From: an uncultured Lachnospiraceae bacterium
Lineage (GTDB): Bacteria; Bacillota; Clostridia; Lachnospirales; Lachnospiraceae
NCBI GenBank assembly: GCA_910584725.1
Contig: CAJUBE010000006.1
Location: forward strand, 14,801 to 78,800
Reading direction: 5' to 3'
DNA: 64,000 nt
Position numbers and translations under genes: made by a program. Under the pieces are notes generated by a model. The model made no database searches, had not been told where the DNA came from, and worked only from the letters and a program-made list of their open reading frames with translations. Position 1 is the first letter of the stretch; each line of letters begins with the position of its first letter. Below are positions 23,427 to 47,195 of the stretch, one piece after another.

Positions 23427-23780
23427 TTACAGAAGCTCCTCCCACTCACTTTCCTTAAAACCCGGATACACGCCCTTCTCACACACAAGAATCGGGCGCT
23501 TCACAAGCATCCCGTCCGTGGCAAGGAGCGCAAGCTGCTCCTCCTCGCTCATGCCGGGCAGTTTATCCTTAAGCGCCATCTCCTTGTAGAGCAGCCCGCT
23601 CGTGTTGAAAAACCGTTTCAGCGGCAGCCCGCTTTTTTCATGCCATGTCCGCAGTTCGTCCGCAGTCGGATTCTCCTCTTTGATCGGGCGTCCTTCATAG
23701 GCAATCCCCCTTTCATCCAGCCATTTCAAAGCCTTCTGGCAGGTGGAACATTTCGCGTAATAGAGAACCATGGGTTTCAT
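23427..23780 (-). CDS. ArsC/Spx/YffB-family thioredoxin-fold protein
   Basis: MKPMVLYYAKCSTCQKALKWLDERGIAYEGRPI...LLATDGMLVKRPIL. GGAGG lies 8 nt upstream. Confidence 0.8.
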   Translation of the reverse strand: MKPMVLYYAKCSTCQKALKWLDERGIAYEGRPIKEENPTADELRTWHEKSGLPLKRFFNTSGLLYKEMALKDKLPGMSEEEQLALLATDGMLVKRPILVCEKGVYPGFKESEWEELL

Positions 23781-23896
23781 GTCTGATTCCTCCGTATCGT
23801 ATTTTCCATATTGCATTTCCATTTGCAAATACCATTTTGATTTTATCAGTATTTCCTGTCTTTTGGCAATCATTATTCCAAAATTTCTTTGCACCG

Positions 23897-25244: not shown

Positions 25245-26087
25245 TTAAAAAGCGACAGATTTTCCGGCAAGAGCGCGCGCCTGCGGAATCGTCATACCGT
25301 GATATCTCTTAAATTCCCGCATGAGATGCGCCTGATCCGTATATTGCAGCAGGCAGACCTCATCCATGATCTGCCGGCACGGCACGGTAAGGATATCCTG
25401 CCACAAATTCTGATAGCGCACAAGCGAGGCAAAGGTTTTCGGCGAAACGCCCATATTCTCCTGAAATACGCGCTGCAGGTGCCTGCCGCTCACGTGAATG
25501 TCCCGCGCCAGCTCATCCATCCGCAGCGCGCCGCGGCGGGAAAGAATCTCCGCCACCGCATCCATGAAAACCGGCTCCTCCCGCCGCAGATCCATTCTTT
25601 GAAACAGCGCCCCTTCCGCCAGTTGCACCCGCTCTTCGATCCCCGTCGTCTCCCACAGCCTCTGCCCCAGAGCGCGCGCAAGCCATGAAAAATAGCCGCC
25701 TGCATCACCGTAAAAATTCCTGCACGTCCGCATGGACTCCTCCGCGAAAAGGACCGCGCTCCACGCATAAAAACGGACGGCAAAAACCGATAAGCGCTGA
25801 CTTACCATGTTTGCGCCGCCGCCTGAGAACGCCCTGTCATCGATGCCGCAAAATAAATCCGACAGACTGTTATCCGTATAATTAACCGTAAATATCACAT
25901 CCATACAGGTGTCCGGCACCACCACATTCTCCGTACCCACCCCGGCTTCCAATGTATAGATATCCCTGCTTCCCCAGAAACAGCGGATGTAAGGCTTAAG
26001 CGCCGCACACGGTTCAATCTCCACATAGGAATCGCTGTGGCGGTAAGGCATTGCCGTGATGGGGGTATAGTTTTTAAAGCACTTCAT
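25245..26087 (-). CDS. AraC-family transcriptional regulator
   Basis: C-terminal HTH_18 pattern LARDIHVSGRHLQRVFQENMGVSPKTFASLVRYQ...QAHLMREFKRYHGMT. Confidence 0.8.
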   Translation of the reverse strand: MKCFKNYTPITAMPYRHSDSYVEIEPCAALKPYIRCFWGSRDIYTLEAGVGTENVVVPDTCMDVIFTVNYTDNSLSDLFCGIDDRAFSGGGANMVSQRLSVFAVRFYAWSAVLFAEESMRTCRNFYGDAGGYFSWLARALGQRLWETTGIEERVQLAEGALFQRMDLRREEPVFMDAVAEILSRRGALRMDELARDIHVSGRHLQRVFQENMGVSPKTFASLVRYQNLWQDILTVPCRQIMDEVCLLQYTDQAHLMREFKRYHGMTIPQARALAGKSVAF

Positions 26088-26116
26088 AATTCAGAAAACC
26101 TTCCCTCTGCAAAAAA

Positions 26117-29100
26117 TCAAACCATTGCGTTTGCATTTATCCGCTCAATCACCTTTCGGATTCCTGCCCAGACATACATGTCCGTAAAAATCTCCACCAC
26201 ACTCCCCTTATCGGTAAAGGGCGATTCCTGTAAAACGGAAAAATCCTTCAGCATACCGTTATGGACAATGTATTCTACAATCTGATTGACAAAGTAAATC
26301 TGCCGGCTGTCCATATTCGTCCCATCCAGATATTGCACAAATGCCTCCTTCGCCGCCTTCATATCCAGTCCGACAATCTCGCGGACAAATTCTCCAAGCG
26401 GTTTCTTTCCGTACTCCCTCTCATAGTCTTCCCTCGTGCCAAGCTCTCCCCAGAGGATTTCTTCAAGAGACCTGATATCAAATTCACTCAGCGGCTTATT
26501 GCTCTTTAATTTCGCAATCGCAATATGATTCTGATTCTGGCGGATATAATACTCCGCCTTTGCCTTATAATTCTTTAAGTCGTCGTTTTCCAGTTCCGCC
26601 TCATGCCACTGCACAGATAAAATATCATCCGAAAAATTTGTCTCGTATTTAACCGATTTCTGCGGAATATATTTCATCAGACTGCGAAGTTCCTCCCGCA
26701 TATATTCAAACTCATCGATTCCGGCATTCTCCACATAGCTTGTCTGTAAAATTTTCTGGATTAAATCCGTCTTTACCTGTATCTCCGGGATATTAGCCAC
26801 ACCCGCTATTGCCTTCACGTGTTTTTGCAAGTCGTTCTTTGCTCTTGTATACGGCTTATCCGAAAGGTAAGCCAATTCCATCCCATACATCAGTGCGTCA
26901 AACCGCACCGCGCCCGCGTCGTCCCCATCCGGCAAAATAAGCGGCGCAAGCTCTTCTTTCACATCCTGCGTATCTTCATAACTGATAGACTGGTAGCCTT
27001 TCACATCGGCATACAAATCAACATATTTCAAGTGCTGTTTTACCGCGAAATTTTCTCTGTTAAGCTCCCGCACTTTACCGCTCATCGTCTCAACCAGCTT
27101 TTCCCGATAAGCCGTCAGGCGTTTCACCTGACGGCTGGCATCCTGCAGCTTATAGGCAAGCTGAAATTCCAGATTAAAAATCGCACTCTGTAACGCCATC
27201 TGATTCGCCGTCGGTTTTCCCTCATTTACCCTGAAAAAAGCAAAGTTTCCACAAAAATCAAAGATATAGAATTTCTGCTTGTCCTCCCCATCTATCAGTC
27301 CCGGACACAATCTGGTGCCCCTGCCAATCATCTGCCAGAATTTTGCCTTACTCAACACTTTCTTGAAAAAAACGAGATTTAACACTTCCGGCACATCAAT
27401 CCCCGTATCAAGCATATCCACGGAAATCGCAATCTGCGGCAATTTTTCCCCCTCAGCGAACTCGTCTATCGCCTTTTGCGCATAAGCCGTGTAATTGTCA
27501 ATCACCCTCGCAAAATCCTGCCCGTTCTTAGACAAGTGCGGATATTCTTTATTAAATATCTCATAAATTTTTTCCGCGTGATTGTGGTTCACCGCAAAAA
27601 TAATCGTTTTTCCCAGCTTCTCCCCGTAGTCAACCTTCAATCCATCACCCATCACAACGTGAAGAACCTGTCTGATCGTATCCTCGTTAAAAAGCCATTT
27701 GTTAATTGCGGACGACTGTATTCTTTCCGGGAAATTGCCGTCCTCGTCCTTAAAAGTAGCCTCATACTCCTCTTTGTCTTCCGTCGATAATTCGTCGTAG
27801 GCAATCCCCTGCTCAATAAATTTTACCTCCGATTCCACCGACAAATAATCAACCAGATATCCGTCCTTTACAGCCTGCGCTAAATCGTAACCGTAAGTCG
27901 GCACACCGTCTTCCAGGTCAAAGACAGCATACGTGTTTTTATCAATTTCTTCCTTCGGTGTCGCCGTCAGTCCCACCAGCAAAGCATCGAAATAAGTAAA
28001 GATATCTTTATATTTATTGTAGATAGACCTGTGCGCCTCGTCGCAGATAATCAAATCAAAGTGCCCGCAGGAAAAAATTTTTCCCTCCCGGTCTGTTGCA
28101 TTGTCGATCAGATTGATCATTGTCTGATAAGTGGAAAATACGCACCGGGCATGATAATTGGACTTTTCCTCCACCACATTGACAACAGACAACTCCTCCG
28201 GGAACTGATTGACAAAACTTCTCTTTGCCTGTGTGACAAGAGAATTGCGGTCAGCGAGAAACAGGACGTTTCTAATCCATCCCGCATCCATCAGCGCCTT
28301 GCAGAGCGCAATCACCGTTCTGGTCTTTCCTGACCCTGTCGCCATGACAAGGAGCGCTTTCCTTCGGTTTTTCTCATCAAAGCTGTCACAAATCGCCCGG
28401 ATTGCCGCCGCCTGATAATATCTTCCCGCAATCTTTGTATCCGCCACAATGTTTTTTAACGACATCCTCGAGTTTCGCAGATTAAACCATTTCTCCAGAT
28501 CTCTCTTGGAATAAATCCCGGACACCTGCCTCTCCGGGTACTGTCCATCTACCATTCTTGTCTCAAAACCGTTTGTCAAAAAAACAACCGGTCTTCTCTT
28601 ATATTTCTGCTCCAGACTATCCGCATAAAGTTTTGCCTGCTGCCGTCCTCTTGCCACATCTTCACAGGTGCTTTTCGCCTCGATAATGGCAAGCGGTTTT
28701 TGCGCATCGTCATAGAGCACATAATCGACGCGCCCCTTTCCCGACTGATTCGGCATCCCGTCGACTTCTACCTCGTTAAGCCAGTTCTTTCCCTCAATCC
28801 AGCCCGCATCCTTAAGCATTTCGTCAATGTAGATTTTCCGGGTCTTATATTCGGATAAATCCAAAGGTTTCGGCACATAGGCGAGCTGCTTTGCCTCTCT
28901 TCTCCTCGTGAGCTCTTCCTTTAACGCCTTGTTTTCCTCAATCAAGGCTTTCAAGTCAACGTCCGCAAACTCGCTGCGAACAGCCGTCTCTTCCGGCATT
29001 TCTTTTCTGAGAAGCGAAGCGTCAAACTGCCGCTCCTCATAATCCTTCGAGTAACAGCATGCCACGAAATCAAGAAAGAAAAACAGATTTTGCAGACAGA

Positions 29101-29425
29101 GCGACGCCTCATCAAAGGTAATCTTTGCTCCGGCATGAGCCGCCCGGTTGCCTATCTTGCGAATCAAGTCCATCCGCCGCCAAAGACTCCTGTCTATGAG
29201 CGCATGGAACTCCTCGGTACTCATCAGACTATGTAAATTATCCTGATAAGGCTTTTGCAGGGAATCGTCAACCGAATACAGCCATTTGACCGCAAACTCC
29301 ATCGCGCGGCGGCAATTGATGACGCACGCCTCGCGGTCTATGGGGAGCAGTTTTTCGGAAGATATGGCGACCTCCGAGAAGCTGGAAAATTGTGGTTCTT
29401 TTTTTAGGTAGTCGAAATTGGTCAT
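26117..29425 (-). CDS. hsdR: type I restriction enzyme R subunit (N-terminal DUF4145-like domain + nuclease + SF2 helicase)
   Basis: RVDYVLYDD...PLAIIEAK (PD-(D/E)xK), LLVMATGSGKTRT (motif I), LIICDEAHRS (DEAH), MIGRGTRL (motif VI). The start is set at MTNFDYLKK with aagggaga upstream. Confidence 0.9.
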   Translation of the reverse strand: MTNFDYLKKEPQFSSFSEVAISSEKLLPIDREACVINCRRAMEFAVKWLYSVDDSLQKPYQDNLHSLMSTEEFHALIDRSLWRRMDLIRKIGNRAAHAGAKITFDEASLCLQNLFFFLDFVACCYSKDYEERQFDASLLRKEMPEETAVRSEFADVDLKALIEENKALKEELTRRREAKQLAYVPKPLDLSEYKTRKIYIDEMLKDAGWIEGKNWLNEVEVDGMPNQSGKGRVDYVLYDDAQKPLAIIEAKSTCEDVARGRQQAKLYADSLEQKYKRRPVVFLTNGFETRMVDGQYPERQVSGIYSKRDLEKWFNLRNSRMSLKNIVADTKIAGRYYQAAAIRAICDSFDEKNRRKALLVMATGSGKTRTVIALCKALMDAGWIRNVLFLADRNSLVTQAKRSFVNQFPEELSVVNVVEEKSNYHARCVFSTYQTMINLIDNATDREGKIFSCGHFDLIICDEAHRSIYNKYKDIFTYFDALLVGLTATPKEEIDKNTYAVFDLEDGVPTYGYDLAQAVKDGYLVDYLSVESEVKFIEQGIAYDELSTEDKEEYEATFKDEDGNFPERIQSSAINKWLFNEDTIRQVLHVVMGDGLKVDYGEKLGKTIIFAVNHNHAEKIYEIFNKEYPHLSKNGQDFARVIDNYTAYAQKAIDEFAEGEKLPQIAISVDMLDTGIDVPEVLNLVFFKKVLSKAKFWQMIGRGTRLCPGLIDGEDKQKFYIFDFCGNFAFFRVNEGKPTANQMALQSAIFNLEFQLAYKLQDASRQVKRLTAYREKLVETMSGKVRELNRENFAVKQHLKYVDLYADVKGYQSISYEDTQDVKEELAPLILPDGDDAGAVRFDALMYGMELAYLSDKPYTRAKNDLQKHVKAIAGVANIPEIQVKTDLIQKILQTSYVENAGIDEFEYMREELRSLMKYIPQKSVKYETNFSDDILSVQWHEAELENDDLKNYKAKAEYYIRQNQNHIAIAKLKSNKPLSEFDIRSLEEILWGELGTREDYEREYGKKPLGEFVREIVGLDMKAAKEAFVQYLDGTNMDSRQIYFVNQIVEYIVHNGMLKDFSVLQESPFTDKGSVVEIFTDMYVWAGIRKVIERINANAMV

Positions 29426-29454
29426 GGGTGGTCTCCCTTGCATCAAACACATAC

Positions 29455-30045
29455 TCAAAATATGGTTTCACTTTTCTTTCGGATACATCGTTCAAACAGA
29501 TCTTCCATTTTTTCGTAATCACATAAAAAGGATTGCTCACTCGCCTTTAGCATTTCTTCTCTGCTGACCTTTCCAAAATTTATTACATACCCATTGTGAA
29601 GCGTCAATGTCCTTATAAACTCACGTTGACTGCGTCCGTTGCCTTCACGAAGAGGATGCAGGGCATTAATCTCCGAAAAATAGTACGCCAATCGAACCGA
29701 AAGCTCTTTTCCGCCCAAACCTTTTAGATAATTTTCTGCTCTCAGCTTTCCAAAAATTTCTTCCGCCTGACTTTCTATAAATTTCGCATTGCAAAACATG
29801 TTCCCTTTTGCAATATCCACTTTTCTGATTTCCCCTGCCCATTCGTATATATCCTGAAAAATATACTTGTGAATTGATTGCAAATGCCTTAAGTCAAACT
29901 TTCCCTGAATAGGTTTATCCACCAATTCAAGAATACGGAGCATTGTCAGGCGCTTTTCCATCTGCCTAAGCTGCTCCATATCCCGTATACCCATCCTGTT
30001 TTTCAATACATCCGACCCCGGATAACAGTATACCTTATCAGACAT
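29455..30045 (-). CDS. Fic/DOC-family toxin (class I, antitoxin-inhibited type)
   Basis: Fic motif HPLREGNGRSQREF. The ATG overlaps the antitoxin stop as TAATG. Confidence 0.85.
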   Translation of the reverse strand: MSDKVYCYPGSDVLKNRMGIRDMEQLRQMEKRLTMLRILELVDKPIQGKFDLRHLQSIHKYIFQDIYEWAGEIRKVDIAKGNMFCNAKFIESQAEEIFGKLRAENYLKGLGGKELSVRLAYYFSEINALHPLREGNGRSQREFIRTLTLHNGYVINFGKVSREEMLKASEQSFLCDYEKMEDLFERCIRKKSETIF

Positions 30046-30371
30046 TATCTGCCCTCTCCTATGATCCGTTTCCGCAATTCATCGCCCGTTACTTCCCCAT
30101 TTTTATAAGCGTACAGTAATTGTAAATCCTCTTCTGTCAGCTCTATCCCTTCAAAAGCCATTGTAGCTGCCACTTCTTCTATCGTTTCCGCTTTGGTATA
30201 TACCGAATGATTCATTTTTACTTTAAAGGGAATCCCCTCAGTAAGTATAATCTGCTTTATCATCATATTGACAACGGCAGATAGATTAGTTCCCAGCTTT
30301 TCCAAAATTTCAGAAGCTTTTTCTTTATCTTCCGCAGAAGTCCTTACTTGCAATAAAGATGTATTGGACAT
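30045..30371 (-). CDS. antitoxin: RelB/DinJ-like ribbon-helix-helix fused to a VbhA-like Fic-inhibitory domain
   Basis: N-terminus SLLQVRTSAEDKEKASEILEKLGTNLSAVVNMMIKQI...IPFKV is DinJ-like. The C-terminus carries the inhibitory motif TMAFEG, i.e. (S/T)xxxE(G/N). AGGAGG lies 9 nt upstream. Confidence 0.7.
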   Translation of the reverse strand: MSNTSLLQVRTSAEDKEKASEILEKLGTNLSAVVNMMIKQIILTEGIPFKVKMNHSVYTKAETIEEVAATMAFEGIELTEEDLQLLYAYKNGEVTGDELRKRIIGEGR

Positions 30372-30396
30372 AATAGCAGCCCTCCTTTCGTCCCCC

Positions 30397-30425
30397 ATTA
30401 TACAACATAGTAATTACATTGTAAA
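30397..30425 (-). promoter_or_regulatory. consensus sigma-A promoter in front of antitoxin-fic-hsdR
   Basis: Minus strand reads TTTACA-17 nt-TATAAT (tttaca atgtaattactatgttg tataat). Confidence 0.6.
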
Positions 30426-30438
30426 CGTGAGCCTGCTT

Positions 30439-31620
30439 TTACCCAAAATATTTCTGCATCAGGCTGTCAAACAGAAGTTGAAGCTGGTCGATGGATTGCT
30501 GTATTTTAAATTTTGGTTCGTCGATATCATGGACGAAGGCAGCAAAAGATTTCTGCAACTCAAGTGGTGGCAGTTTAAATCGTAAATGCTTTATTATTGT
30601 TAAATTTAAACCATCCATAATCGCGCCTTTTGAGTTCATATGCATTTGAGCAATTATCTCAGGATGGATTTGAAAGGCATTAGCAAGAAAATATGGATCA
30701 GCCAATTCATCTTTTAATGTCAAACATGCTAAATGCTTGGTATTTATAGCTAAAGGTATATCTTTTGGAATAACCGCCGAGCGTCCAACTGTTCCCATGA
30801 TTGTAATGATTACATCTAAAGGTTTTACAGTATATCGTTTTAACTTCTGATACTTTTCCTTTGTGATATACCGCATTCTATTATATGAAAATTTGTTTTC
30901 TACAGCATTGTCAATACCTAAAACAAAAATTCCATTATCTACAAATTCATCATGATGTAAGGCACTTCCAAAAGGTCCGGTTCTCATGTCACTACAAATA
31001 TCTTCCATATTGACAGTATCCCAATCGTCATTATTATCAAACATCTCTACAAATCGGGATTTGATTACCTCGTCAAGCATAATAAGCTGCTCTTGTTGCA
31101 ATTTTATAATTTTACAAATGATGTCCAACTTTCTGCATATATTGCGCTGTTCTTCAATGGCTGTATCTTTGATATTAAATCTAGAAATATAATCATCCGT
31201 TTTTAAATTATGGAGTCCTGTTGTTTTGTTTTCAAATGCTTTTGTCCCACCTTTTCTGTAATTTGAATATAGTGAATAAAATATATATTTCGGCTCCCAT
31301 TTATCTTTATCTTTAATTCTAAGAAGTCCAGTAAAATTATTAAAAAGATATTTGTGCTCTAACCCTTCAAAAAAGACTACTCTTCCAACTGGCTGCTTAT
31401 CACTTCCACCAGACTTCTCAATAATAATATCACCTTGTATCAAATATTTTTCATCAATATTTTTTTTAGGTATTTTTCTTGTCACTATATTTTCATAATT
31501 CACAATTCCTTCATTAGTGAAATTCGTGGTTCTTAAAACAGGTATACCTGTACCATCAACATCATCTATTCCCCATTCTCCAGATAAAGCCTTTCCAGTA
31601 ATCTCAATCAATTTTGCCAT
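30439..31620 (-). CDS. hsdS: type I R-M specificity subunit
   Basis: Two target-recognition domains separated by conserved helices (EEQRNICRKLDIICKIIKLQQEQLIMLDEVIKSRF ... LELQKSFAAFVHDIDEPKFKIQQSIDQLQLLFDSLMQKYF). ATG at 31620 with GGAG 6 nt upstream. Confidence 0.85.
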   Translation of the reverse strand: MAKLIEITGKALSGEWGIDDVDGTGIPVLRTTNFTNEGIVNYENIVTRKIPKKNIDEKYLIQGDIIIEKSGGSDKQPVGRVVFFEGLEHKYLFNNFTGLLRIKDKDKWEPKYIFYSLYSNYRKGGTKAFENKTTGLHNLKTDDYISRFNIKDTAIEEQRNICRKLDIICKIIKLQQEQLIMLDEVIKSRFVEMFDNNDDWDTVNMEDICSDMRTGPFGSALHHDEFVDNGIFVLGIDNAVENKFSYNRMRYITKEKYQKLKRYTVKPLDVIITIMGTVGRSAVIPKDIPLAINTKHLACLTLKDELADPYFLANAFQIHPEIIAQMHMNSKGAIMDGLNLTIIKHLRFKLPPLELQKSFAAFVHDIDEPKFKIQQSIDQLQLLFDSLMQKYFG

Positions 31621-31686
31621 TTTATGCTCCAATCAATCTATGCTGCTAAAGCAATCACTTCTGTTACCAAATCATAATGTCCAATC

Positions 31687-32739
31687 CTATTCACAAACAA
31701 TACCCTCTATAACATTATTCAATGATTCAAACCGCAATTTTCTACTTCCCAAATCTGTAGATGCTCGAATACCAGATGAATAATTACGTATATTTATATC
31801 CTTTTCGTTTATTTCAAGTTCTTCTTTAATCGATTTTTGAAAATTAGTAACCCTATCACCAAAATACGTTAAGCGTTCGCCCAGTCTCTCTCTCACATTT
31901 GAAGAAAATGGCATTTTATGGTTATATTCAGCAAGCACCAAAAAGAGAGTATAAAAATCTGTCATATTACGCCAACGAGTTTTCTTTATATTAGGTAAAA
32001 TTTGCAAAATCTCTTTTGCTACACTATTAAAAACACCTTTTATCCGTTCACTATCACTAAACTCTTCCTCATATAATTTATAATAATAATCCAATTTCAC
32101 CTTTTTATTTTGATGACCATTTAAATATGCGATCACAATTTCGCTTATAAATTCAGCATCTAACATACGCCTTATCTTTTGTGGCGTAAAAACACCTATA
32201 TCTTCCCAATAGGTCTGATCCGAAATATCATTAATCATAACAATAAATTCGCCCGAATAAGTAGCCTGTCTCAGTTCCTGTTGGTTCAACCTTTCATTAT
32301 TCTTATTAATTCTTTTAAAAATATTACGTATTATATCATCATCTATATCCGGCAACAGTCTTATCACAAACTTATACTCAAAAAACCTTTTTTTATCGTT
32401 TGGCGATAACTCATCAAAAGTCAAATTTTCCCACTGTTCACTGGTTTCAGTTGGCACTAATGAAAATTCATTATTTATAAAATCTAAAACCGTTCTCAAT
32501 CTTTGCTGTCCATCAACCACAACAAATTGGCTTTCTCCCTTTTCATTCACACGTTCTTGCAAATATATTTCTGGAATTGGATAGCTCCTTAAAATGGAAT
32601 CAATTAAATAACTTTTTTGATTAATAGTCCAAACGGGATTACGTTGAAAGGTTGGTTTGATTACCAAACTATCCCCCTCCTTACTTCTTTGATTAAACCA
32701 CGCAATATTTTGTTGTGTACTTCCTAAATAATCTTTCAT
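31687..32739 (-). CDS. DUF262 (ParB/Srx-fold, GmrSD N-terminal-like) protein lacking a DUF1524/HNH nuclease domain
   Basis: IKPTFQRNPVWTINQKSYLIDSILRSYPIPEIYL...FVVVDGQQRLRTVLDFI is the canonical DGQQR motif. I see no His-Me/HNH motif in the C-terminal ~200 aa. The ATG overlaps the upstream stop as TAATG; GGAGG lies 9 nt upstream. Confidence 0.8.
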   Translation of the reverse strand: MKDYLGSTQQNIAWFNQRSKEGDSLVIKPTFQRNPVWTINQKSYLIDSILRSYPIPEIYLQERVNEKGESQFVVVDGQQRLRTVLDFINNEFSLVPTETSEQWENLTFDELSPNDKKRFFEYKFVIRLLPDIDDDIIRNIFKRINKNNERLNQQELRQATYSGEFIVMINDISDQTYWEDIGVFTPQKIRRMLDAEFISEIVIAYLNGHQNKKVKLDYYYKLYEEEFSDSERIKGVFNSVAKEILQILPNIKKTRWRNMTDFYTLFLVLAEYNHKMPFSSNVRERLGERLTYFGDRVTNFQKSIKEELEINEKDINIRNYSSGIRASTDLGSRKLRFESLNNVIEGIVCE

Positions 32740-33344
32740 TATGAAATACCTCCTAAAATTATTTCTTGACATTCTCTAACACTATTGATTTGATAATCTC
32801 GAAATGATTTGTTATCCTTATATATCCTAAAATTAATCTCTCTTTCATTTATAGGCGGATTACTTCTCATTTCATTTATTACTTCATTCCAAAGTTTTCC
32901 AAATGATAAAATTGGTAATATCTTGTCAGTTGCTATAGTTCCCCAATATATTAACCTATTTCTATGATCCTCTAAAGCTTGTTTCATATTATTATTTAAT
33001 TTATAATATTTTTGGTTTCTAAGTTCATGCCATGCAATATCAAAATAATAATTAGATATTATCCCTACATCAATATCCGAATATTGGCTAAACTTTTTAA
33101 AATTCTTCTTTGGATTTAAGCTATAACCAAGACAAGCTGAACCAGTAATTATTATATCTCTCGCATCTATCTGAAGTCTAGATGCCATTTTATGTTTCCA
33201 TTCATAATACTTTACTTCATTACCGCAAAAAATATTAGGTGTTTTTTCCATTATCCACTTGGAAATGAATACATCTGGCGATATTGTTACTAAATCATTT
33301 CTAATATTTTCCAAAAGTTCATCTGTGTATTGCATCTCTTCCAT
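32739..33344 (-). CDS. pol-beta-superfamily nucleotidyltransferase-like protein (unclassified)
   Basis: IIITGSACLGYSLNPKKNFKKFSQYSDIDVGIIS has the G-S ... D-x-D arrangement of minimal NTases. The start is set at MEEMQ (agagggg 8 nt upstream). Very AT-rich. Confidence 0.5.
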   Translation of the reverse strand: MEEMQYTDELLENIRNDLVTISPDVFISKWIMEKTPNIFCGNEVKYYEWKHKMASRLQIDARDIIITGSACLGYSLNPKKNFKKFSQYSDIDVGIISNYYFDIAWHELRNQKYYKLNNNMKQALEDHRNRLIYWGTIATDKILPILSFGKLWNEVINEMRSNPPINEREINFRIYKDNKSFRDYQINSVRECQEIILGGIS

Positions 33345-33462
33345 AAGCATAGCCCCTCTAGACGTTATCAAAATGTATAATATCAATCATATCTTACTCT
33401 TCTAAAAATTCTCTCTTTCTCTACACTCTTGCACTTTGCAAAAAATGCAAATTCCCAACTAT

Positions 33463-34971
33463 CTACAACTCCTCTTCCAGCATCCCCTTAAGTTCCTCCA
33501 ACTCCTCCCCAATCTGCCGCTCCAGCTCAAATATCTGTTCCAGTATTTCTCCTGTCGGCGGGTATTCTACGGGCACATATTCCTGCTTCTTATATTTATT
33601 AATCGACAAGTCGTAGTCGTTTTTCGTAATTTCCTGCTTTGGCACAAAAAACGACTTCTCCGTCCTCTCCCTTTCCGTTTCCCCGTCCCTGTTGTGGAAC
33701 CGTTCTATGATATCAGGAATATCATTTTCATTTATAGGGCTTCTCTTATCATCCAGGCTGAACCCGTCCGCCTGCATATCATAAAACCAGACTTGATCAG
33801 TCCCGCCATGGTTGGTCTTTGTAAAAATCAGAATCCCTGTGGAAACGCCTGCGTATGGCTTAAACACTCCGGGCGGCATGGAGATCACCGCTTCCAGTCT
33901 CTGATTTTCCAACAGTTCTTTTCTGATATCTTTATGCGCTTTTGAAGACCCAAACAGCACACCATCCGGAACAATGCAGGCACATCTCCCGCCCACTTTC
34001 ATCATCCTCACAAACAACGCAAGAAACAAAAGTTCCGTCTTCTTTGTCTTGCATACCTTAAGCAGATCCGCGGACACCGCTTCCGCATCAAGACTCCCCT
34101 TAAAAGGCGGGTTCGCTAAAATCAGGGAATACTTATCTGCGTCCGAATTTTGTTCCGACAGACTGTCCCTATACTCGATAAAAGGATTCTCCACCCCGTG
34201 CGTCATCATATTCATGGCGCCGATGCGCAGCATGGTTCTGTCCATATCATAGCCATGAAACATATGATTCATATAATGGTCTTTTTTCACTTTGTCATAA
34301 AAGATTTCTTCCTTGTGTTTTTCCTTCAGATATTCTCCTGCGGTCACAAGAAATCCAGATGTGCCGCAAGCCGGATCGCATATCACATCCTCCGCGGAAG
34401 GTTTCATCAGTTCCACCATCATACGGATAATATGTCTCGGTGTGCGAAACTGTCCATTTAACCCCGACTGCGCAATCTTAGAAAGCAGATACTCATATAC
34501 ATCTCCTCTGATATCCACATCCTTCACCTGCTCCATCAGCGCAAAAATATCTTCCAGTGAATCCACCACCTTTGACAAAAGAAGCGGCGTCGGCAGCTTA
34601 AAGATTGCGTCATCCATATATTTTGCATAGGCGCTATCCTTGTCTCCATGCAGATTTTTCATGAACGGGAACACCCATTCCTGCACGACCGAATACATTT
34701 TCTGCGCCGGGAAGTCATGGAACACAGACCATTTCAAGGTTCTTCCCTCCACCTCTCTGTCTCCGACGCTTACCTGCCCGGCAAAAATACTCTGAAAGGG
34801 CAGTCCAAGCATAACACTCTCTTTCTCCCGCATGGTATCCGAAACATCCAAATCATGAATGAATATCAAATAGGTAATCTGCTCGATCACTTCCAGCGGA
34901 TTCACCAGACCGCCCGCCGCAAACGCATCCCAAAGGGCATCTATTTTATTTCTCAGCTCTCCTGTAACCAT
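33463..34971 (-). CDS. hsdM: type I R-M N6-adenine DNA methyltransferase subunit
   Basis: HsdM N-terminal domain, FRTPRHI, ICDPACGTSGFL (motif I), LANPPFKGS (motif IV). The ATG overlaps the upstream fic stop as TGATG. Confidence 0.9.
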   Translation of the reverse strand: MVTGELRNKIDALWDAFAAGGLVNPLEVIEQITYLIFIHDLDVSDTMREKESVMLGLPFQSIFAGQVSVGDREVEGRTLKWSVFHDFPAQKMYSVVQEWVFPFMKNLHGDKDSAYAKYMDDAIFKLPTPLLLSKVVDSLEDIFALMEQVKDVDIRGDVYEYLLSKIAQSGLNGQFRTPRHIIRMMVELMKPSAEDVICDPACGTSGFLVTAGEYLKEKHKEEIFYDKVKKDHYMNHMFHGYDMDRTMLRIGAMNMMTHGVENPFIEYRDSLSEQNSDADKYSLILANPPFKGSLDAEAVSADLLKVCKTKKTELLFLALFVRMMKVGGRCACIVPDGVLFGSSKAHKDIRKELLENQRLEAVISMPPGVFKPYAGVSTGILIFTKTNHGGTDQVWFYDMQADGFSLDDKRSPINENDIPDIIERFHNRDGETERERTEKSFFVPKQEITKNDYDLSINKYKKQEYVPVEYPPTGEILEQIFELERQIGEELEELKGMLEEEL

Positions 34972-36041
34972 CACGCCTCATCCTCCCAATTCCATTTGTA
35001 TTTTGTATATCTGCCGCCGCCTATCTTAATAATCCTTCCATCCTTTACCAAATCGTTAAGCGTCCTCTGCACCGTAGTCTGACTGATATCAGAAAACATC
35101 TGTACCAGTTCTCTTTTCGTTATCACGCCGATATGTTCCCTTATTTCCTCTGCAATTCTGTCCGGTTTTGACATTTTATGCCGGGTAACTGTTTTTGCTC
35201 TTTCAAAAAACTCCCGGTAAGCTGCCGCAGTTACGCCAAGCATATATTTTACAAAGAAGCTGTAATCATTCCGATTCTCATGCCAATCTGCCGAGCTATC
35301 CGCCAGTGCCTCGTAATATGCCTCCTTAGACTGCTCAATCAATTTTTCTATACTAATATACTTACCCACAAAATACCCTGCTCTGTACAATAAAAGCAGT
35401 GTCAATAATCTGCTCATCCTGCCGTTTCCGTCTCTGAAAGGGTGAATGCACAGAAAATCCAGAACAAACATGGGGATGATCAGCAATAAATCCGCCTGTC
35501 CTTCCTCTACAACCTTTCCATACGCCTCACATAGCCCTTCCACCGCTTCCTTTGTCTCCCACGCCGGAACGGTCTGAAATCTCACCCTCTTATTTCCTGT
35601 TTCGTCCTGCTCTTCAATCACGTTATCCACAACTTTATAGGCACCGCCTGTCCCCGTTCCTTCAAACTTATACAGATCACGATGCATCTGTAAGATAAAG
35701 GAGGCTCTCGCTGGAATATGCTCATAGTTCTCGTGAATCGTATTGAGCACATCCCGATACCCTGCTATTTCTCTTTCGTCCCTCGACCTAGGCTTTGTCT
35801 TATCTAAAACGAGTTTCCGCAGCTGCTCATCTGACGTATGGATACCCTCAATTCTGTTTGAACTTTCCGTGCTCTGTATTTTCGCAATCTGCACCAAATC
35901 TTCCAAAACATCCGCATGCCTGTCCGCTATCAGACGCTGTTCTCCCCGAAACTCATGTATTGTGGTTAAATATCCTACGATTTCCGGCGTCAGGAGGCTC
36001 TGCCATTTATTTTCATAATCATAATTTCTCAAACATGTCAC
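34971..36041 (-). CDS. class II Fic-family protein (N-terminal inhibitory helix, C-terminal winged HTH)
   Basis: Inhibitory motif SNRIEG, Fic motif HPFRDGNGRMSRLL, C-terminal wHTH ITKRELVQMFSDISQTTVQRTLNDLVKDGRI. Confidence 0.85.
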   Translation of the reverse strand: MTCLRNYDYENKWQSLLTPEIVGYLTTIHEFRGEQRLIADRHADVLEDLVQIAKIQSTESSNRIEGIHTSDEQLRKLVLDKTKPRSRDEREIAGYRDVLNTIHENYEHIPARASFILQMHRDLYKFEGTGTGGAYKVVDNVIEEQDETGNKRVRFQTVPAWETKEAVEGLCEAYGKVVEEGQADLLLIIPMFVLDFLCIHPFRDGNGRMSRLLTLLLLYRAGYFVGKYISIEKLIEQSKEAYYEALADSSADWHENRNDYSFFVKYMLGVTAAAYREFFERAKTVTRHKMSKPDRIAEEIREHIGVITKRELVQMFSDISQTTVQRTLNDLVKDGRIIKIGGGRYTKYKWNWEDEA

Positions 36042-36078
36042 CCCTGTTATGTTAAAATTTCAAACTATTTATTCCATT

Positions 36079-36107
36079 ATATTATCTTGTAATTACGTCA
36101 ATGTCAA
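36079..36107 (-). promoter_or_regulatory. candidate sigma-A promoter of the fic-hsdM... operon
   Basis: Minus strand reads TTGACA-17 nt-TAATAT in an AT-rich spacer upstream of the fic start. Confidence 0.45.
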
Positions 36108-36201
36108 TACCATTTTAGTCATTAACCAGCAAAAGACTAAATTAAATCATAAAAAGGCGCATTTGAAACACCAAACTGTCACATTCCGTTCTCACTCTAT
36201 C

Positions 36202-36224
36202 AAAAAAGAGCCCCGAAGGACTCC
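36202..36224 (-). terminator. intrinsic terminator after the MATE remnant
   Basis: Minus strand reads ggagtcc-ttcg-gggctc followed by TTTTTT. Confidence 0.6.
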
Positions 36225-36271
36225 ATCAAAAATTCACGCTCAACAAAAAATGTAACTTTGTCCAAATATTT

Positions 36272-36670
36272 TCATCCCATAGTCTCCCGCCGATACACCC
36301 ACAACAGACAAAGGCACAAAAACACATCCGCCAGAAACCACGCGCACACTTCTCCCCAGAACACACCCGCCTGACCTATCTTCTTTGTCAGGAAAAAGGC
36401 GCAGCCCACCCGCATAGCAAGCTGCAAAAAACTGGAGCACATGGGCAGCAGCGTATTTCCCATCCCCTGCACGCACCCAAACATGACAAACTCCAGCCAC
36501 TCTGTCGCACCCAGAGCCGCCAGTGCCGTCACACCGAGATATTTTCCCACGATCATCGTGTCCACAAAGGTATACAGCTGCTGAAACACATTGCCGACCA
36601 TCAGGGAGAAGGCAAATCCAATCAGCAGGACAAACGGGCTGCCCTCCGTCATGTCTTTCGCACTTTTCAT
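36272..36670 (-). pseudogene. internally deleted MATE-family efflux transporter remnant
   Basis: The first ~60 aa (DMTEGSPFVLLIGFAFSLMVGNVFQQLYTFVDTMIVGKYLGVTALAALGA) match a MATE N-terminus. The last ~50 aa resemble a MATE C-terminus. It is 132 aa in total versus about 450 expected. Confidence 0.6.
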
Positions 36671-36696
36671 CGCATTCCTGAACCTGCCCTCTCCGC

Positions 36697-37305
36697 CTAT
36701 TCGGAAGAAATCTCCGTTTCCGCCGTTTCCATGCCCTCCGGCATCCCCACATTCGTCTCCGCATTCTGGGACGCCTCAAAGGGATCTTCATACTCCTTCT
36801 CTTCCTCCTCGCCCCAGAGCGAATCCCATTCCTTGTGCTCGCCCTCCGTATTCATTGCCGCCATCTCTTTCGCCATCTTATAGATATCCATGTTAAAATC
36901 CATCAGCTTCTTTTCGTCCTGTGCGGGCACGCGGTCGCCCCGGCTGATTCTTCTGGCAATTTCCAGACACTTTGCCATATTCTCGCCATACTCCTTCATA
37001 GCATCCGCCTGCTGCTCGGAAACCACGCTGTTAAAGATGCCGACCTCCTGCTCGATCAAGTCATCCAGCGTCTTCTCATTTTTGTCAATCTGCCCGGAAA
37101 GCTCATCGATTTTCTCCTGCAGTTCTTTTTCCCGCTGCATGTAGGCTTCGGAAAGCTCAAAAGTCACGCCCTGCTCCTCGCTCTTCTTTCTCGCCTCCTC
37201 CATCTTTTTGCGGTTTTCCTCCCGCTGCTTCACAAAATCCCTTTTCTCTCCCCTTAAAAGACCAAGCTGCTGCCTGTAAGCTTTCTGCGCTTCTCCGATT
37301 TTCAT
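36697..37305 (-). CDS. hypothetical coiled-coil, acidic protein
   Basis: 202-aa ORF rich in E/K heptads. No motif recognised. Confidence 0.45.
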   Translation of the reverse strand: MKIGEAQKAYRQQLGLLRGEKRDFVKQREENRKKMEEARKKSEEQGVTFELSEAYMQREKELQEKIDELSGQIDKNEKTLDDLIEQEVGIFNSVVSEQQADAMKEYGENMAKCLEIARRISRGDRVPAQDEKKLMDFNMDIYKMAKEMAAMNTEGEHKEWDSLWGEEEEKEYEDPFEASQNAETNVGMPEGMETAETEISSE

Positions 37306-38228: not shown

Positions 38229-38489
38229 ATGGAATGGATGAAGGCAATCGAAGATGCTGTAACATACATTGAAACGCATATCACGGAGGAGATCGACACG
38301 GAAGCCGTGGCAAGGCACGTCTGCATCTCGCCCTTCTATTTTCAGAAAGGCTTCAGCATACTCTGCGGCTACACAGTAGCCGAATACATCCGCAATCGCA
38401 GGCTTGCCCTCGCAGGAACAGTAAATGAAACGCAGCCGCATGATATCTTACCGTCGTGCGGCTGCTTGCGGTTTGCGGTTATTCTTTGA
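38229..38489 (+). pseudogene. 5' fragment of an AraC-family (GyrI-like effector domain type) regulator gene
   Basis: MEWMKAIEDAVTYIETHITEEIDTEAVARHVCISPFYFQKGFSILCGYTVAEYIRNRRLALAG is only the first HTH. Homology stops near 38410, and the reading frame then runs into the adjacent cassette. Confidence 0.6.
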
Positions 38490-43147: not shown

Positions 43148-43150
43148 TTC

Positions 43151-43549
43151 CTAATATCGCTCCAAAAATTCTGCCATTGTAACAATCTCCGGCATCTCTA
43201 CATCCAAAACCAAAAAATCCTTATCCCCTGTGACAAATACGTCAATGCCTTCCATAATCATAGTAGCCAGTATTGGTGCATCCTTTACATCGCGCATTTC
43301 CGGAAACTCACCCAAATCCAAAGTTTTCGGTGTATAAACCAACTCAAAAGGAAGTTCCATAAAAAAACGGTCAAGAAACTTCCTCTTTGCAGGAAACTTC
43401 CTGTCTGTCACAAGCCGCAGCTCCTCAATCACATAGTCACACACCACAATCTGATAACTGTCCGCCAATCGCTTTGCCAGTCCCCTTGTCTGCGCAGACG
43501 GATAGAAAATCATGGAAATAAAAATGTTGGTATCAAGCATTACCCGCAA
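43151..43549 (-). CDS. PIN-domain toxin (VapC-like)
   Basis: MRVMLDTNIFIS...CDYVIEEL...DVKDAPILAT...FVTGDKDF carries the acidic residues of a PIN fold. Confidence 0.8.
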   Translation of the reverse strand: MRVMLDTNIFISMIFYPSAQTRGLAKRLADSYQIVVCDYVIEELRLVTDRKFPAKRKFLDRFFMELPFELVYTPKTLDLGEFPEMRDVKDAPILATMIMEGIDVFVTGDKDFLVLDVEMPEIVTMAEFLERY

Positions 43550-43550
43550 A

Positions 43551-43808: not shown

Positions 43809-43931
43809 AATTCATCATCCTTTCAAATCCGATACTTGGTTTTCTTTACTTTCTTTACCTTTATTATATGCAACAGAATACATAATATCAATCTTTTCAG
43901 TAATGATTTTTATGGACAATAAACGAAAGCA

Positions 43932-47173: not shown

Positions 47174-47195
47174 AATAATATCGGGACAGTGTCTC

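What the first reader, a model, noticed from the sequence alone, without database searches (positions are those of the whole stretch)
26117..36271. Type I R-M operon interleaved with five extra defence-type genes, forming a ~10-kb AT-rich island
Eight co-oriented minus-strand genes: class II fic - hsdM | NTase-like - DUF262 | hsdS | RHH::VbhA antitoxin - fic | hsdR. Three junctions are 1-nt stop/start overlaps (TGATG at 34971, TAATG at 32739 and 30045), so the extra genes are translationally wired into the operon. The block is visibly more AT-rich than its flanks, most extremely at 30.4-33.4 kb (hsdS, DUF262, NTase-like). The hsdR stop (26117) lies only 29 bp from the start codon of the downstream AraC gene (26087), leaving no room for a terminator or a native promoter. 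The other border is an internally deleted MATE gene. I see no integrase or transposase. Restriction-linked ORFs inside hsd operons are known (e.g. PrrC, HEPN/MNT pairs). Two different Fic proteins plus an NTase/DUF262 pair in one hsd operon is not an arrangement I know.
Basis: partly seen in the sequence, partly recalled or inferred. Interest (0 to 1): 0.7.

Follow-up and report, generated by a model that had tools for sequence, protein, structure and literature searches.

The report
Restriction operon carrying extra defence cassettes
A gut Lachnospiraceae bacterium has a Type I restriction-modification operon that always starts with a Fic enzyme gene and, in this strain, also holds two extra gene cassettes; this is a known kind of "defence genes nested inside defence genes" locus, and one cassette is an uncharacterised, widespread gene pair.

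Summary
Eight intact co-oriented minus-strand genes (ficII, hsdM, 201-aa protein, DUF262, hsdS, RHH-VbhA antitoxin, fic, hsdR) lie at 26117-36041, with the stated overlaps, low GC and the 29-nt gap to AraC.

The locus is a mosaic, not one wired eight-gene unit.

1. ficII-hsdM-hsdS-hsdR is a conserved four-gene core. In 78 of 80 related metagenome loci hsdM follows ficII within 2-69 nt. A conserved 16-bp-arm palindrome abuts the -35 box.
2. The intervals hsdM-to-hsdS and hsdS-to-hsdR act as cargo slots. Relatives carry AbiJ, NERD, RhuM-Doc, MNT-HepT, TIR, AbiTii or recombinase genes there.
3. The 201-aa/DUF262 pair is an autonomous cassette. It is adjacent in 49 of 51 species across many phyla and sits inside a Type I system only in this lineage. 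Its GC3 is 0.20-0.26.
4. The Fic toxin-antitoxin pair has its own strong promoter and is lost or replaced in close relatives.
5. Relatives with an empty site show that MATE plus the island was inserted between hyp202 and AraC. AraC is natively coupled to its upstream gene, which explains the 29-nt gap.

"NTase-like" is only a motif-level hint. Embedding in Type I systems is published (Payne 2024, TgvAB, pneumococcal tvr). I rate this a new variant of a known kind.

The parts
26112..36719 (-). Segment absent from empty-site relatives: MATE fragment plus the R-M island, 10.6 kb. It is flanked by imperfect copies of a ~22-26 bp target sequence.
   Evidence: L069:9384-9969 = window 37305-36720, then L069:9974-10936 = window 26111-25155. 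L074 shows the same. The target sequence TGCAGAAGCGGAGGTTCCTTCTGAAT is represented at both ends.
36272..36670 (-). MATE efflux gene fragment (132 aa) with an in-frame internal deletion of ~930 bp.
   Evidence: Pfam MatE on residues 24-81. Intact 447-451 aa copies occur in L018, L073 and L075.
36207..36224 (-). Terminator-like hairpin followed by a T-run, between the MATE fragment and the island promoter.
36114..36141 (-). Dyad-symmetric element TTTAGTC-N14-GACTAAA abutting the -35 box. It is a degenerate copy of the family palindrome TTCAATTTAGTCATTT-N6-AAATGACTAAATTGAA and is a putative operator.
   Evidence: The 16 positions are 91% symmetric against 25-51% when slid. Six positions show symmetric double changes, and 0 of 500 shuffles reach the observed value.
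36079..36107 (-). Promoter-like site P1 (TTGACA-17-TAATAT, with TATAAT 2 nt further on) upstream of ficII.
   Evidence: The -35 and -10 columns are conserved in alignment A2.
34971..36032 (-). ficII: class II Fic AMPylase (HPFRDGNGRMSR, with N-terminal inhibitory SNRIEG) plus a C-terminal winged-helix domain. It is the conserved first gene of the operon.
   Evidence: hsdM follows in 78 of 80 loci.
33463..34971 (-). hsdM, Type I methyltransferase. Its start overlaps the ficII stop (TGATG).
30595..33471 (-). Low-GC block (GC ~0.31, GC3 0.20-0.26) holding the 201-aa gene, DUF262 and most of hsdS. Homology to relative L073 breaks at both of its edges.
32739..33344 (-). 201-aa protein of an uncharacterised family (phrog_32008). 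Residues G68, S69, D90, D92, H127, D140 and R173 are conserved. It is the obligate partner of the DUF262 gene.
31687..32739 (-). DUF262-only protein (ParB-like NTPase with QRNPVW, DGQQR and FKRIN motifs, plus an NsnA-type C-terminal half). It has no DUF1524 nuclease domain.
30439..31620 (-). hsdS specificity subunit with two TRDs. The C-terminal TRD differs in L018.
30397..30425 (-). Promoter-like site P2 (TTTACA-17-TATAAT, 11 of 12 matches, TG-extended). The palindrome TTACAATGTAA overlaps its -35 box.
30045..30371 (-). Antitoxin: RelB-type RHH fused to a VbhA-like inhibitory helix (TMAFEG).
29455..30045 (-). Class I Fic toxin, VbhT/FicT-like (HPLREGNGRSQR).
26117..29425 (-). hsdR restriction subunit (1102 aa) with an N-terminal DUF4145 domain and a C-terminal EcoEI_R_C domain.
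25245..26087 (-). AraC-family regulator (flank). In empty-site relatives it is translationally coupled to hyp206 (ATGA overlap).

Best explanation
The locus is a mosaic defence island built on a four-gene Type I restriction-modification operon, ficII-hsdM-hsdS-hsdR. This operon family is common in gut Clostridia.

Shown:
- The class II Fic-wHTH gene is a conserved, catalytically intact leader gene tightly coupled to hsdM.
- A conserved palindrome sits against the -35 box of the operon promoter.
- The hsdM-to-hsdS and hsdS-to-hsdR intervals are variable slots that hold different defence-type cargo in different relatives.
- In this window, slot 1 (together with hsdS) was replaced by a low-GC block carrying an autonomous two-gene cassette, the 201-aa protein plus a DUF262-only protein.
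- Slot 2 holds a class I Fic toxin with an RHH-VbhA antitoxin and its own promoter.
- The island plus a MATE gene was inserted between hyp202 and AraC.

Inferred:
- HsdM2S methylates host DNA and HsdR2M2S restricts unmodified DNA.
- Dimeric FicII binds the palindrome through its wHTH and autoregulates the operon. It may also act as a SoFic-type abortive-infection AMPylase.
- The DUF262 NTPase senses phage DNA that escapes Type I restriction, for example modified DNA. It works through its 201-aa partner, as a back-up in the manner of BrxU/BREX and TgvAB/Type I.
- The Fic toxin-antitoxin pair AMPylates a host target to arrest growth and/or stabilises the island.
- Transcription starts at P1, is boosted at P2, and reads through into AraC.
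For: Core and coupling:
- 80 metagenome loci carry ficII at 65-96% identity. In 78 of them hsdM starts 2-69 nt downstream.
- The minimal hsdM-to-hsdR distance of 1.29 kb (hsdS only) is seen in L077, L078, L081, L083, L085, L089 and L098.
- 79 of 80 copies keep HPFxDGNGRxSR and 80 of 80 keep SN[KR]IEG.

Operator: palindrome conservation and symmetric covariation.

Cargo slots: tyrosine recombinase, AbiJ_NTD4, DUF3990, NERD, RhuM-Fic/DOC, MNT+HepT, CAP12 TIR, AAA-ATPase+PDDEXK, AbiTii and another Fic.

Autonomy of the 201-aa/DUF262 pair:
- 51 species loci; 49 have DUF262 immediately downstream.
- Only L018 has hsd genes within 9 kb, by tblastn and phmmer.
- Stand-alone contexts are seen.
- The reverse association holds down to 24-41% DUF262 identity.

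Mosaicism:
- GC3 strata.
- L018 lacks ficI and keeps an antitoxin pseudogene.
- L073 is a decayed island with a RhuM-Doc remnant in slot 1.
- L075 and L076 carry a 30%-identical Fic in slot 2.

Insertion: empty sites in L069-L072 and L074 and a duplicated target sequence.

Transcription signals.

Precedents: Payne 2024, TgvAB, Menshen next to R-M systems, phd-doc in a pneumococcal Type I locus, SoFic.
Against: - No functional data: no methylome, transcript map or phage assay.
- The roles of FicII (regulator versus effector) and of the 201-aa protein are inferred only.
- The 201-aa model (pLDDT 88.8) has no significant structural neighbour, so its activity is unknown.
- No intrinsic terminator separates the modules, so functional integration cannot be excluded.
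- The palindrome in the window copy is partly degenerate (7-bp perfect arms).
- Context surveys used tblastn and phmmer with this family's Hsd proteins. Very divergent Type I systems near other cassette copies could be missed; L155 has a HindI-type HsdR nearby that these queries did not detect.
- Most comparison sequences are MAG or metagenome contigs.
Confidence: 0.78

Rival explanations
1. One reading: a single integrated eight-gene operon. The five accessory genes are functionally dependent on, or guard, the Type I enzyme, as PrrC is held in check by EcoprrI.
For: - All genes are co-oriented, with no terminator-like sites between them and short spacers.
- ficII/hsdM coupling is conserved family-wide.
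- TgvAB protects 10-100 times better in its native Type I cluster.
- Embedded genes share the orientation of the host system in 96.7% of cases.
Against: - The 201-aa/DUF262 pair occurs without any Type I genes in 50 of 51 species.
- The toxin-antitoxin module has its own promoter and is lost or replaced in genomes with 91-97% identical hsd genes.
- Many relatives have the bare four-gene core.
- There are three compositional strata.
Confidence: 0.15
2. The accessory genes are mainly selfish or addiction elements rather than immunity. The Fic toxin-antitoxin pair, and possibly FicII, stabilise the island against loss, and the cassettes hitch-hike on a frequently exchanged R-M operon.
For: - Classic type II toxin-antitoxin layout with an autoregulatory-looking promoter palindrome.
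- Island identity exceeds backbone identity in L076 and L018, which suggests horizontal exchange.
- Payne et al. discuss a selfish benefit of embedding.
- Decay of modules in L018 and L073 shows weak selection.
Against: - All eight genes are intact here and catalytic motifs are kept.
- SoFic-type and DUF262-type proteins have demonstrated anti-phage activity.
- The two roles are not mutually exclusive.
Confidence: 0.25
3. The 201-aa/DUF262 pair is not a defence system. It could be a ParB-like DNA-handling module of mobile elements, for example for partition or DNA-modification bookkeeping.
For: - DUF262 belongs to the ParB/Srx superfamily.
- Both proteins match phage ortholog groups of unknown function.
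- Many stand-alone copies sit among housekeeping genes.
Against: - The best PADLOC match is NsnA of Menshen across the full length.
- Every characterised DUF262 system is anti-phage.
- Copies occur in toxin-antitoxin or defence islands: Leptospira, and L155 next to GmrSD, a Type I HsdR and RhuM genes.
- There is embedding in a Type I operon here.
Confidence: 0.15

Closest known systems
Defence genes embedded in Type I R-M, BREX, DISARM and Hma systems ('guilt-by-embedding', Payne et al. 2024, bioRxiv 10.1101/2024.01.29.577857)
   Same: Co-oriented defence-type genes are nested between hsd genes. The 196-aa Fic matches their candidate PDC-S04 at 2e-78. GmrSD-like/DUF262 genes are reported as frequent Type I cargo.
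   Different: - The 201-aa partner has no PADLOC model.
- Two slots are occupied at once.
- The leader Fic gene lies outside the hsd genes and is conserved family-wide rather than being occasional cargo.
TgvAB of Vibrio cholerae VPI-2 (PMC11411939)
   Same: A two-gene DUF262-based module embedded in a Type I operon. Both genes are needed. It also occurs far more often outside Type I clusters (1,341 versus 79 hits).
   Different: TgvAB is DUF262 plus DUF262-DUF1524 (an HNH nuclease). Here there is no DUF1524, and the partner is an unrelated 201-aa protein.
Menshen (NsnABC) and PD-T4-2 (PMC12065111, PMC10952713)
   Same: The DUF262-only protein has the NsnA-type architecture (ParB-DUF262 plus a C-terminal DNA-binding half). 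PADLOC gives NsnA 5e-43 and PD-T4-2_A 5e-22. The logic of a DUF262 sensor with a separate effector is the same.
   Different: No NsnB ABC ATPase, no NsnC and no HEPN partner. The partner gene lies upstream and belongs to a new family.
SoFic single-gene defence (class II Fic; PMC12249575, Millman 2022 as cited there)
   Same: Class II Fic with an N-terminal inhibitory helix and a C-terminal domain. The PADLOC SoFic profile matches residues 49-346 at 1e-36.
   Different: - It is not stand-alone. It is translationally coupled to hsdM in 78 of 80 loci, with a conserved palindrome at its promoter.
- It scores far below the NCBIfam SoFic equivalog cut-off (47.8 versus 550 bits).
- There is no small AS1-like gene downstream.
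VbhT/VbhA and FicT/FicA class I Fic toxin-antitoxin modules, and pneumococcal phd-doc inside the tvr Type I locus (PMC4257102, PMC6265443)
   Same: The toxin is 1e-43 to VbhT structures. The antitoxin carries the TxxxEG inhibitory motif. The antitoxin gene is upstream with a 1-nt overlap. A Fic/Doc-family toxin-antitoxin pair inside a Type I locus has precedent.
   Different: The antitoxin is fused to a RelB-type RHH DNA-binding domain. The toxin lacks the BID domain of VbhT. The toxin type (Fic AMPylase) differs from Doc kinase.

Membership tests
Type I restriction-modification system | HsdM N6-adenine methyltransferase | tested here: met
   Pfam N6_Mtase 2.5e-65 plus HsdM_N; PADLOC MTase_I 7e-184
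Type I restriction-modification system | HsdS with two target-recognition domains | tested here: met
   Methylase_S, two stretches; PADLOC Specificity_I 3e-63
Type I restriction-modification system | HsdR with nuclease and SF2 motor domains | tested here: met
   HSDR_N, ResIII, Helicase_C and EcoEI_R_C; PADLOC REase_I 4e-148. NCBIfam equivalog cut-offs are not reached.
Type I restriction-modification system | Methylation and restriction activity | not testable with these tools
   Needs a methylome or a transformation/phage assay
SoFic (class II Fic defence protein) | Fic motif HxFx(D/E)GNGRxxR plus an N-terminal inhibitory (S/T)xxxE(G/N) in the same chain | tested here: met
   HPFRDGNGRMSR at residue 197; SNRIEG at residue 58
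SoFic (class II Fic defence protein) | Equivalog-level similarity to SoFic | tested here: not met
   NCBIfam ProtAdlyltaseSoFic 47.8 bits against a cut-off of 550. The PADLOC SoFic profile does match at 1e-36.
SoFic (class II Fic defence protein) | Acts as a stand-alone single-gene system | tested here: not met
   Coupled to hsdM in 78 of 80 loci
Class I Fic toxin-antitoxin (VbhT/VbhA, FicTA) | Fic toxin lacking its own inhibitory helix, with the active-site motif | tested here: met
   HPLREGNGRSQR; no (S/T)xxxE(G/N) in the toxin; VbhT structures 1e-43
Class I Fic toxin-antitoxin (VbhT/VbhA, FicTA) | Separate upstream antitoxin carrying the (S/T)xxxE(G/N) helix | tested here: met
   TMAFEG at residue 70. 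Pfam VbhA 24.4 bits, just under the cut-off of 25.9. TAATG overlap.
GmrSD / BrxU / SspE Type IV restriction | DUF262 NTPase domain with QR, DGQQR and FxxxN motifs | tested here: met
   GmrSD_N 4e-23; motifs at residues 32, 76 and 141
GmrSD / BrxU / SspE Type IV restriction | DUF1524 His-Me nuclease domain | tested here: not met
   No GmrSD_C/DUF1524 hit in the 350-aa protein or its partner
Menshen (NsnABC) | NsnA-like DUF262 protein | tested here: met
   PADLOC NsnA 5e-43 over profile positions 61-381 of 385
Menshen (NsnABC) | Adjacent NsnB ABC ATPase and NsnC effector | tested here: not met
   The neighbours are the 201-aa protein and hsdS; no ATPase
PD-T4-2 | DUF262 protein plus a HEPN partner | tested here: not met
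   PD-T4-2_A 5e-22 for the DUF262 protein, but the partner has no PADLOC or Pfam hit at E<=10 or E<=1. The HEPN partner is as described in PMC10952713.
Pol-beta-fold nucleotidyltransferase (MNT-like) for the 201-aa protein | hG[GS] ... [DE]x[DE] motif on the beta1-alpha2-beta2 core | tested here: inconclusive
   - G68, S69, D90 and D92 are invariant or nearly invariant, and the strand order is compatible.
- There is no Pfam or PDB profile hit.
- Foldseek best hits are poly(A) polymerase, GLD-2, Tam41 and CdnE, but at E>=0.5 and TM<=0.27.
- hhalign against an MNT aligns the motifs at probability 1%.
Integrative mobile element | Integrase or recombinase and att-like flanking repeats | tested here: inconclusive
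   - No recombinase in the island and no tRNA in the window.
- An imperfect ~22-26 bp duplication of the target flanks the insert.

The most novel reading that the evidence does not exclude
The class II Fic-wHTH protein is an integral fourth component of a widespread Type I R-M family. As a dimer it binds the conserved 16-bp-arm palindrome at the -35 box and acts as the system's controller, by analogy with the C-proteins of Type II systems. Its auto-inhibited AMPylase is released when the R-M complex is attacked, or it modifies an Hsd subunit. This would couple restriction to an abortive or regulatory response. Separately, the 201-aa/DUF262 pair would be a new, phylum-spanning two-gene anti-phage system with a previously undescribed effector fold.
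Probability: 0.2. Interest if true: 0.75.

Novelty: new variant of a known kind. Interest (0 to 1): 0.45.

Why it matters
Nesting of defence genes inside R-M operons is already a published discovery principle, so the locus as described does not change the picture. It does give three concrete, testable leads.

1. A Type I R-M family in gut Clostridia has an obligatory Fic-wHTH leader gene and a conserved operator-like palindrome. That points to transcriptional control or AMPylation-based control of Type I systems, for which no controller protein is known to me (from memory, not tested).
2. An uncharacterised 201-aa/DUF262 gene pair is found in many phyla (about 1,400 sequence clusters at 50% identity). 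It is a good candidate for a new defence system of the form 'DUF262 sensor plus unknown effector'.
3. There is a natural series of closely related loci: empty site, bare core, different cargo, and decayed copies. This series shows how cargo slots in R-M operons are filled, swapped and lost.

Tried and rejected
- E. coli genome search of the 12.5-kb region: no match. The organism is a Lachnospiraceae MAG lineage.
- The 201-aa protein gave nothing significant in: Pfam and PADLOC at permissive E-values, a PDB sequence-profile search, Foldseek against PDB and BFVD, and hhalign against an MNT (probability 1%). I therefore do not endorse 'NTase'.
- GenBank phages: no homologue of the 201-aa protein. 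Plasmids: two weak hits only.
- Payne et al. supplements for PDC-S04/Fic: the files are truncated and gave nothing usable.
- Literature search for PDB 8UQU, the closest structure to FicII: nothing relevant.
- tRNA scan for an integration target: none found.
- I considered that L018's permuted order (island upstream of hyp205-MATE-AraC) might be a MAG mis-assembly. I rejected this as the sole explanation because independent contigs L079 (site B) and L077/L078 (site C) also place the island at other intergenic positions.
- I considered the MATE gene as a native border. I rejected this because empty-site relatives lack it.

Full report
**Observation**

The region 26117-36041 carries eight intact, co-oriented minus-strand ORFs. 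Profile searches identify them as follows.

- HsdR, 1102 aa: DUF4145, HSDR_N, ResIII/helicase and EcoEI_R_C domains.
- A 196-aa class I Fic: PADLOC PDC-S04 2e-78; VbhT structures 1e-43.
- A 108-aa antitoxin: a RelB-type RHH fused to a VbhA-like helix.
- HsdS with two TRDs.
- A 350-aa DUF262-only protein: GmrSD_N; PADLOC NsnA 5e-43.
- A 201-aa protein with no hit in Pfam, NCBIfam or PADLOC.
- HsdM.
- A 353-aa class II Fic with a C-terminal winged helix: PADLOC SoFic 1e-36.

Motifs are intact:
- FicII: HPFRDGNGRMSR plus the inhibitory SNRIEG.
- Class I toxin: HPLREGNGRSQR.
- Antitoxin: TMAFEG.
- DUF262: QRNPVW, DGQQR and FKRIN.

GC falls to 0.30 at 31-33 kb, against 0.51-0.55 in the flanks.

The likely start codons differ slightly from a naive ORF call. 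hsdR starts at ATG 29425, the antitoxin at ATG 30371, the 201-aa gene at ATG 33344 and ficII at TTG 36032. Independent gene calls on identical contigs agree.

**Source organism**

The window matches mouse- or human-gut Lachnospiraceae MAGs. The exact locus occurs only in same-species assemblies. A related MAG (L018, Lachnospiraceae bacterium SC1186_S39_bin.15) is about 91-93% identical across the island.

**The Fic leader gene belongs to the R-M family**

A metagenome scan with FicII returned 431 relatives, of which the best 80 loci (65-96% identity) were kept. In 78 of the 80, hsdM begins 2-69 nt after ficII. The two exceptions are a contig end and a deletion. hsdS and hsdR follow.

The smallest hsdM-to-hsdR distance is 1.29 kb, enough for hsdS alone (L077, L078, L081, L083, L085, L089, L098). 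The ancestral core is therefore ficII-hsdM-hsdS-hsdR.

The Fic catalytic motif is kept in 79 of 80 copies and the inhibitory motif in all 80.

Upstream, the family shares a palindrome, TTCAATTTAGTCATTT-N6-AAATGACTAAATTGAA. It abuts a conserved -35/-10 pair. Across 41 distinct sequences:
- The 16 arm positions are 91% symmetric, against 25-51% when the partner is slid.
- Six positions show symmetric double substitutions.
- 0 of 500 shuffles reach the observed covariation.

The window copy (36141-36114) is a degenerate version. Many members carry a second, similar element between the -10 box and the ribosome-binding site.

I infer an operator for a dimeric DNA-binding protein. The obvious candidate is FicII's own wHTH, since SoFic crystallises as a homodimer (PMC12249575). 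This is inference, not shown.

**The two intervals are cargo slots**

Between hsdM and hsdR the relatives carry very different genes:
- a tyrosine recombinase with extra hsdS copies (22 loci)
- AbiJ_NTD4 (20 loci)
- DUF3990 (11 loci)
- NERD
- RhuM-Fic/DOC
- MNT plus HepT
- a CAP12/Pycsar TIR protein
- an AAA-ATPase with a PD-(D/E)XK domain
- AbiTii
- another Fic

The nearest relatives differ from the window exactly in these slots.
- L075 (hsdM 98%, hsdR 98%) has a RhuM-Doc gene in slot 1 and a 31%-identical Fic in slot 2.
- L076 has a VbhA-only antitoxin with a 30%-identical Fic.
- L073 is a decaying island. ficII, hsdM, hsdS, ficI and hsdR all carry deletions or frameshifts. A 49-aa remnant of the RhuM-Doc gene sits where the window has the 201-aa/DUF262 pair.
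- L018 has the 201-aa/DUF262 pair, lacks ficI, keeps only an antitoxin pseudogene, and has a different C-terminal TRD in hsdS.

**Composition**

GC3 falls into distinct strata:

| Genes | GC3 |
|---|---|
| Flanking genes | 0.65-0.68 |
| hsdR, hsdM, ficII | 0.48-0.55 |
| Toxin-antitoxin pair | 0.36-0.41 |
| hsdS, DUF262, 201-aa gene | 0.20-0.26 |

Homology with L073 breaks at 33472, three codons before the hsdM stop, and at 30594, in the conserved 3' end of hsdS. The low-GC block therefore looks like a cassette swap between conserved hsdM and hsdS ends.

**The 201-aa/DUF262 pair is an autonomous, old, uncharacterised cassette**

- The 201-aa protein has 242 homologues in the word-indexed search.
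- It has 1,428 clusters at 50% identity in the exhaustive search. Nearly all are 190-210 aa, and none is fused to DUF262.
- In one genome per species, 51 loci were found. They span Bacillota, Bacteroidota, several proteobacterial classes, Cyanobacteria, Actinomycetota, Verrucomicrobiota, Planctomycetota and Acidobacteriota.
- 49 of the 51 have the DUF262 homologue immediately downstream. The exceptions are a contig end and a 2-kb gap.
- Only L018 has hsd genes within 9 kb, by tblastn and phmmer.

Stand-alone contexts include:
- a site between an ABC transporter and lepA, for a 78%-identical copy
- a toxin-antitoxin-rich island in Leptospira hartskeerlii
- a site next to clpB in Winogradskyella

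One viral-catalogue contig (L155) places the pair among three RhuM genes. These lie beside a full-length GmrSD, a HindI-type HsdR and a serine recombinase.

Starting instead from a DUF262 profile, 8 of 15 viral-contig loci have a 201-aa-like ORF directly upstream. This holds even where DUF262 identity is only 24-41%. The two genes have therefore co-diverged.

Both proteins match PHROGs of unknown function.

The AlphaFold model of the 201-aa protein is confident (pLDDT 88.8). It has no significant Foldseek neighbour. Several weak top hits are pol-beta nucleotidyltransferases, and the invariant GS...DxD motif aligns with that of an MNT, but at 1% probability. 'NTase-like' is a lead, not a result.

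**The toxin-antitoxin module has its own control region**

Directly after the hsdS stop lies TTTACA-17-TATAAT (11 of 12 matches, TG-extended). The palindrome TTACAATGTAA overlaps its -35 box, and AAAGGAGG follows 8 nt before the ATG at 30371. This is the usual layout of an autoregulated type II toxin-antitoxin operon.

**Borders**

Relatives whose AraC is 89% (L069-L072) or 81% (L074) identical have hyp206/204 overlapping AraC (ATGA). They have no MATE gene and no R-M genes.

At nucleotide level, L069 joins window 36720 to window 26111. The insert is therefore 26112-36719, that is, MATE plus the island.

The empty-site sequence TGCAGAAGCGGAGGTTCCTTCTGAAT is represented, imperfectly, at both ends of the insert.

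AraC is natively translationally coupled to its upstream gene. That explains why hsdR ends 29 nt from it, with no promoter or terminator between.

The MATE copy in the window has lost about 930 bp internally, compared with L018, L073 and L075.

A terminator-like hairpin (36224-36207) precedes P1. No terminator-like site lies between the island genes or after hsdR. Read-through into AraC is therefore likely.

**Unexplained**

In congeners the same island occupies three different intergenic positions within about 3 kb of backbone:
- Site A, MATE|AraC: window, L073, L075, L076.
- Site B, 146-aa gene|hyp202: L018, L079.
- Site C, FtsX|AraC-GyrI-like gene: L077, L078.

The island ends are constant. 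The left end is at the palindrome/promoter (about 36143). The right end is a few nucleotides after the hsdR stop (26111-26122). The window island carries no recombinase.

In L076 and L018 the island is more similar to the window than the backbone is, which suggests horizontal exchange.

**Comparison with known systems**

- The phenomenon is the one described by Payne et al. 2024.
- DUF262 modules in Type I operons are exemplified by TgvAB and RloF (as cited).
- Menshen is often next to Type I systems.
- A Fic/Doc-family toxin-antitoxin pair sits inside the pneumococcal tvr Type I locus.
- The DUF262 protein fails membership of GmrSD (no DUF1524), Menshen (no NsnB or NsnC) and PD-T4-2 (no HEPN partner).
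- FicII resembles SoFic but is not stand-alone, and it is far below the equivalog cut-off.

**Verdict**

The locus is a new variant of a known kind.

Two aspects are new:
- a conserved Fic-led Type I family with an operator-like palindrome
- a widespread, uncharacterised partner family for DUF262

Noticed in passing
window 36114-36141; alignment A2 of 41 upstream regions from L075-L154: A conserved 16-bp-arm palindrome (TTCAATTTAGTCATTT-N6-AAATGACTAAATTGAA) abuts the -35 box of the ficII promoter and shows symmetric compensatory changes. Many family members have a second, similar element between the -10 box and the ribosome-binding site.
   Followed up: yes
window 26111-26122 and ~36143; L018, L077, L078, L079: The same R-M island sits at three different intergenic positions within ~3 kb of the same backbone in related genomes, with constant island ends and no recombinase. 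The mechanism is unknown. L018's hsdR-end junction shares the microhomology ATTTTTTG with window ~37478.
   Followed up: partly
window 43149-43929: A ~780-bp segment carrying a PIN-domain (VapC-like) gene (43151-43549, minus strand) lies between the response-regulator and histidine-kinase genes. It is absent in L069 but present, with a 77-aa upstream ORF, in L074. It is probably a VapBC module inserted in a two-component operon.
   Followed up: partly
window 38229-38489 (+): An 86-aa remnant (HTH_18/HTH_AraC) of an AraC/GyrI-like regulator that is 285 aa in L069 and L074. This is another sign of local gene decay next to the island.
   Followed up: partly
window 44840-47283: A low-GC (0.39-0.41) stretch with reversed GC skew carries a plus-strand methyl-accepting chemotaxis gene (45254-47173, dCache+MCPsignal). 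L069 has a shorter segment with an acetyltransferase gene here.
   Followed up: partly
window 29050-29320 (HsdR residues 36-124): HsdR has an N-terminal DUF4145 domain, and residues 13-189 match the PADLOC candidate PDC-M16A. The role of this extra domain is not known to me.
   Followed up: no
L155 1-11666 (IMGVR_UViG_3300029190_000089): A 76-82% identical copy of the 201-aa/DUF262 pair lies between three RhuM-family genes. Next to them are a large serine recombinase, a full-length GmrSD (DUF262+DUF1524+DUF5655) and the C-terminus of a HindI-type HsdR.
   Followed up: partly
window 30414-30424: The perfect palindrome TTACAATGTAA overlaps the -35 box of the toxin-antitoxin promoter. It is a likely binding site for the RHH antitoxin.
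   Followed up: no
window 23427-23894: The ArsC/glutaredoxin-like gene is present here and in L074 but missing from L069-L072, so it is a small variable gene in the backbone.
   Followed up: no
one search hits P0252, P0253, P0265, P0269, P0279, P0283, P0284, P0328: A minority of 201-aa family members are 270-310 aa, with an N-terminal extension of ~80-110 residues. This is either an extra domain or mis-called starts.
   Followed up: no
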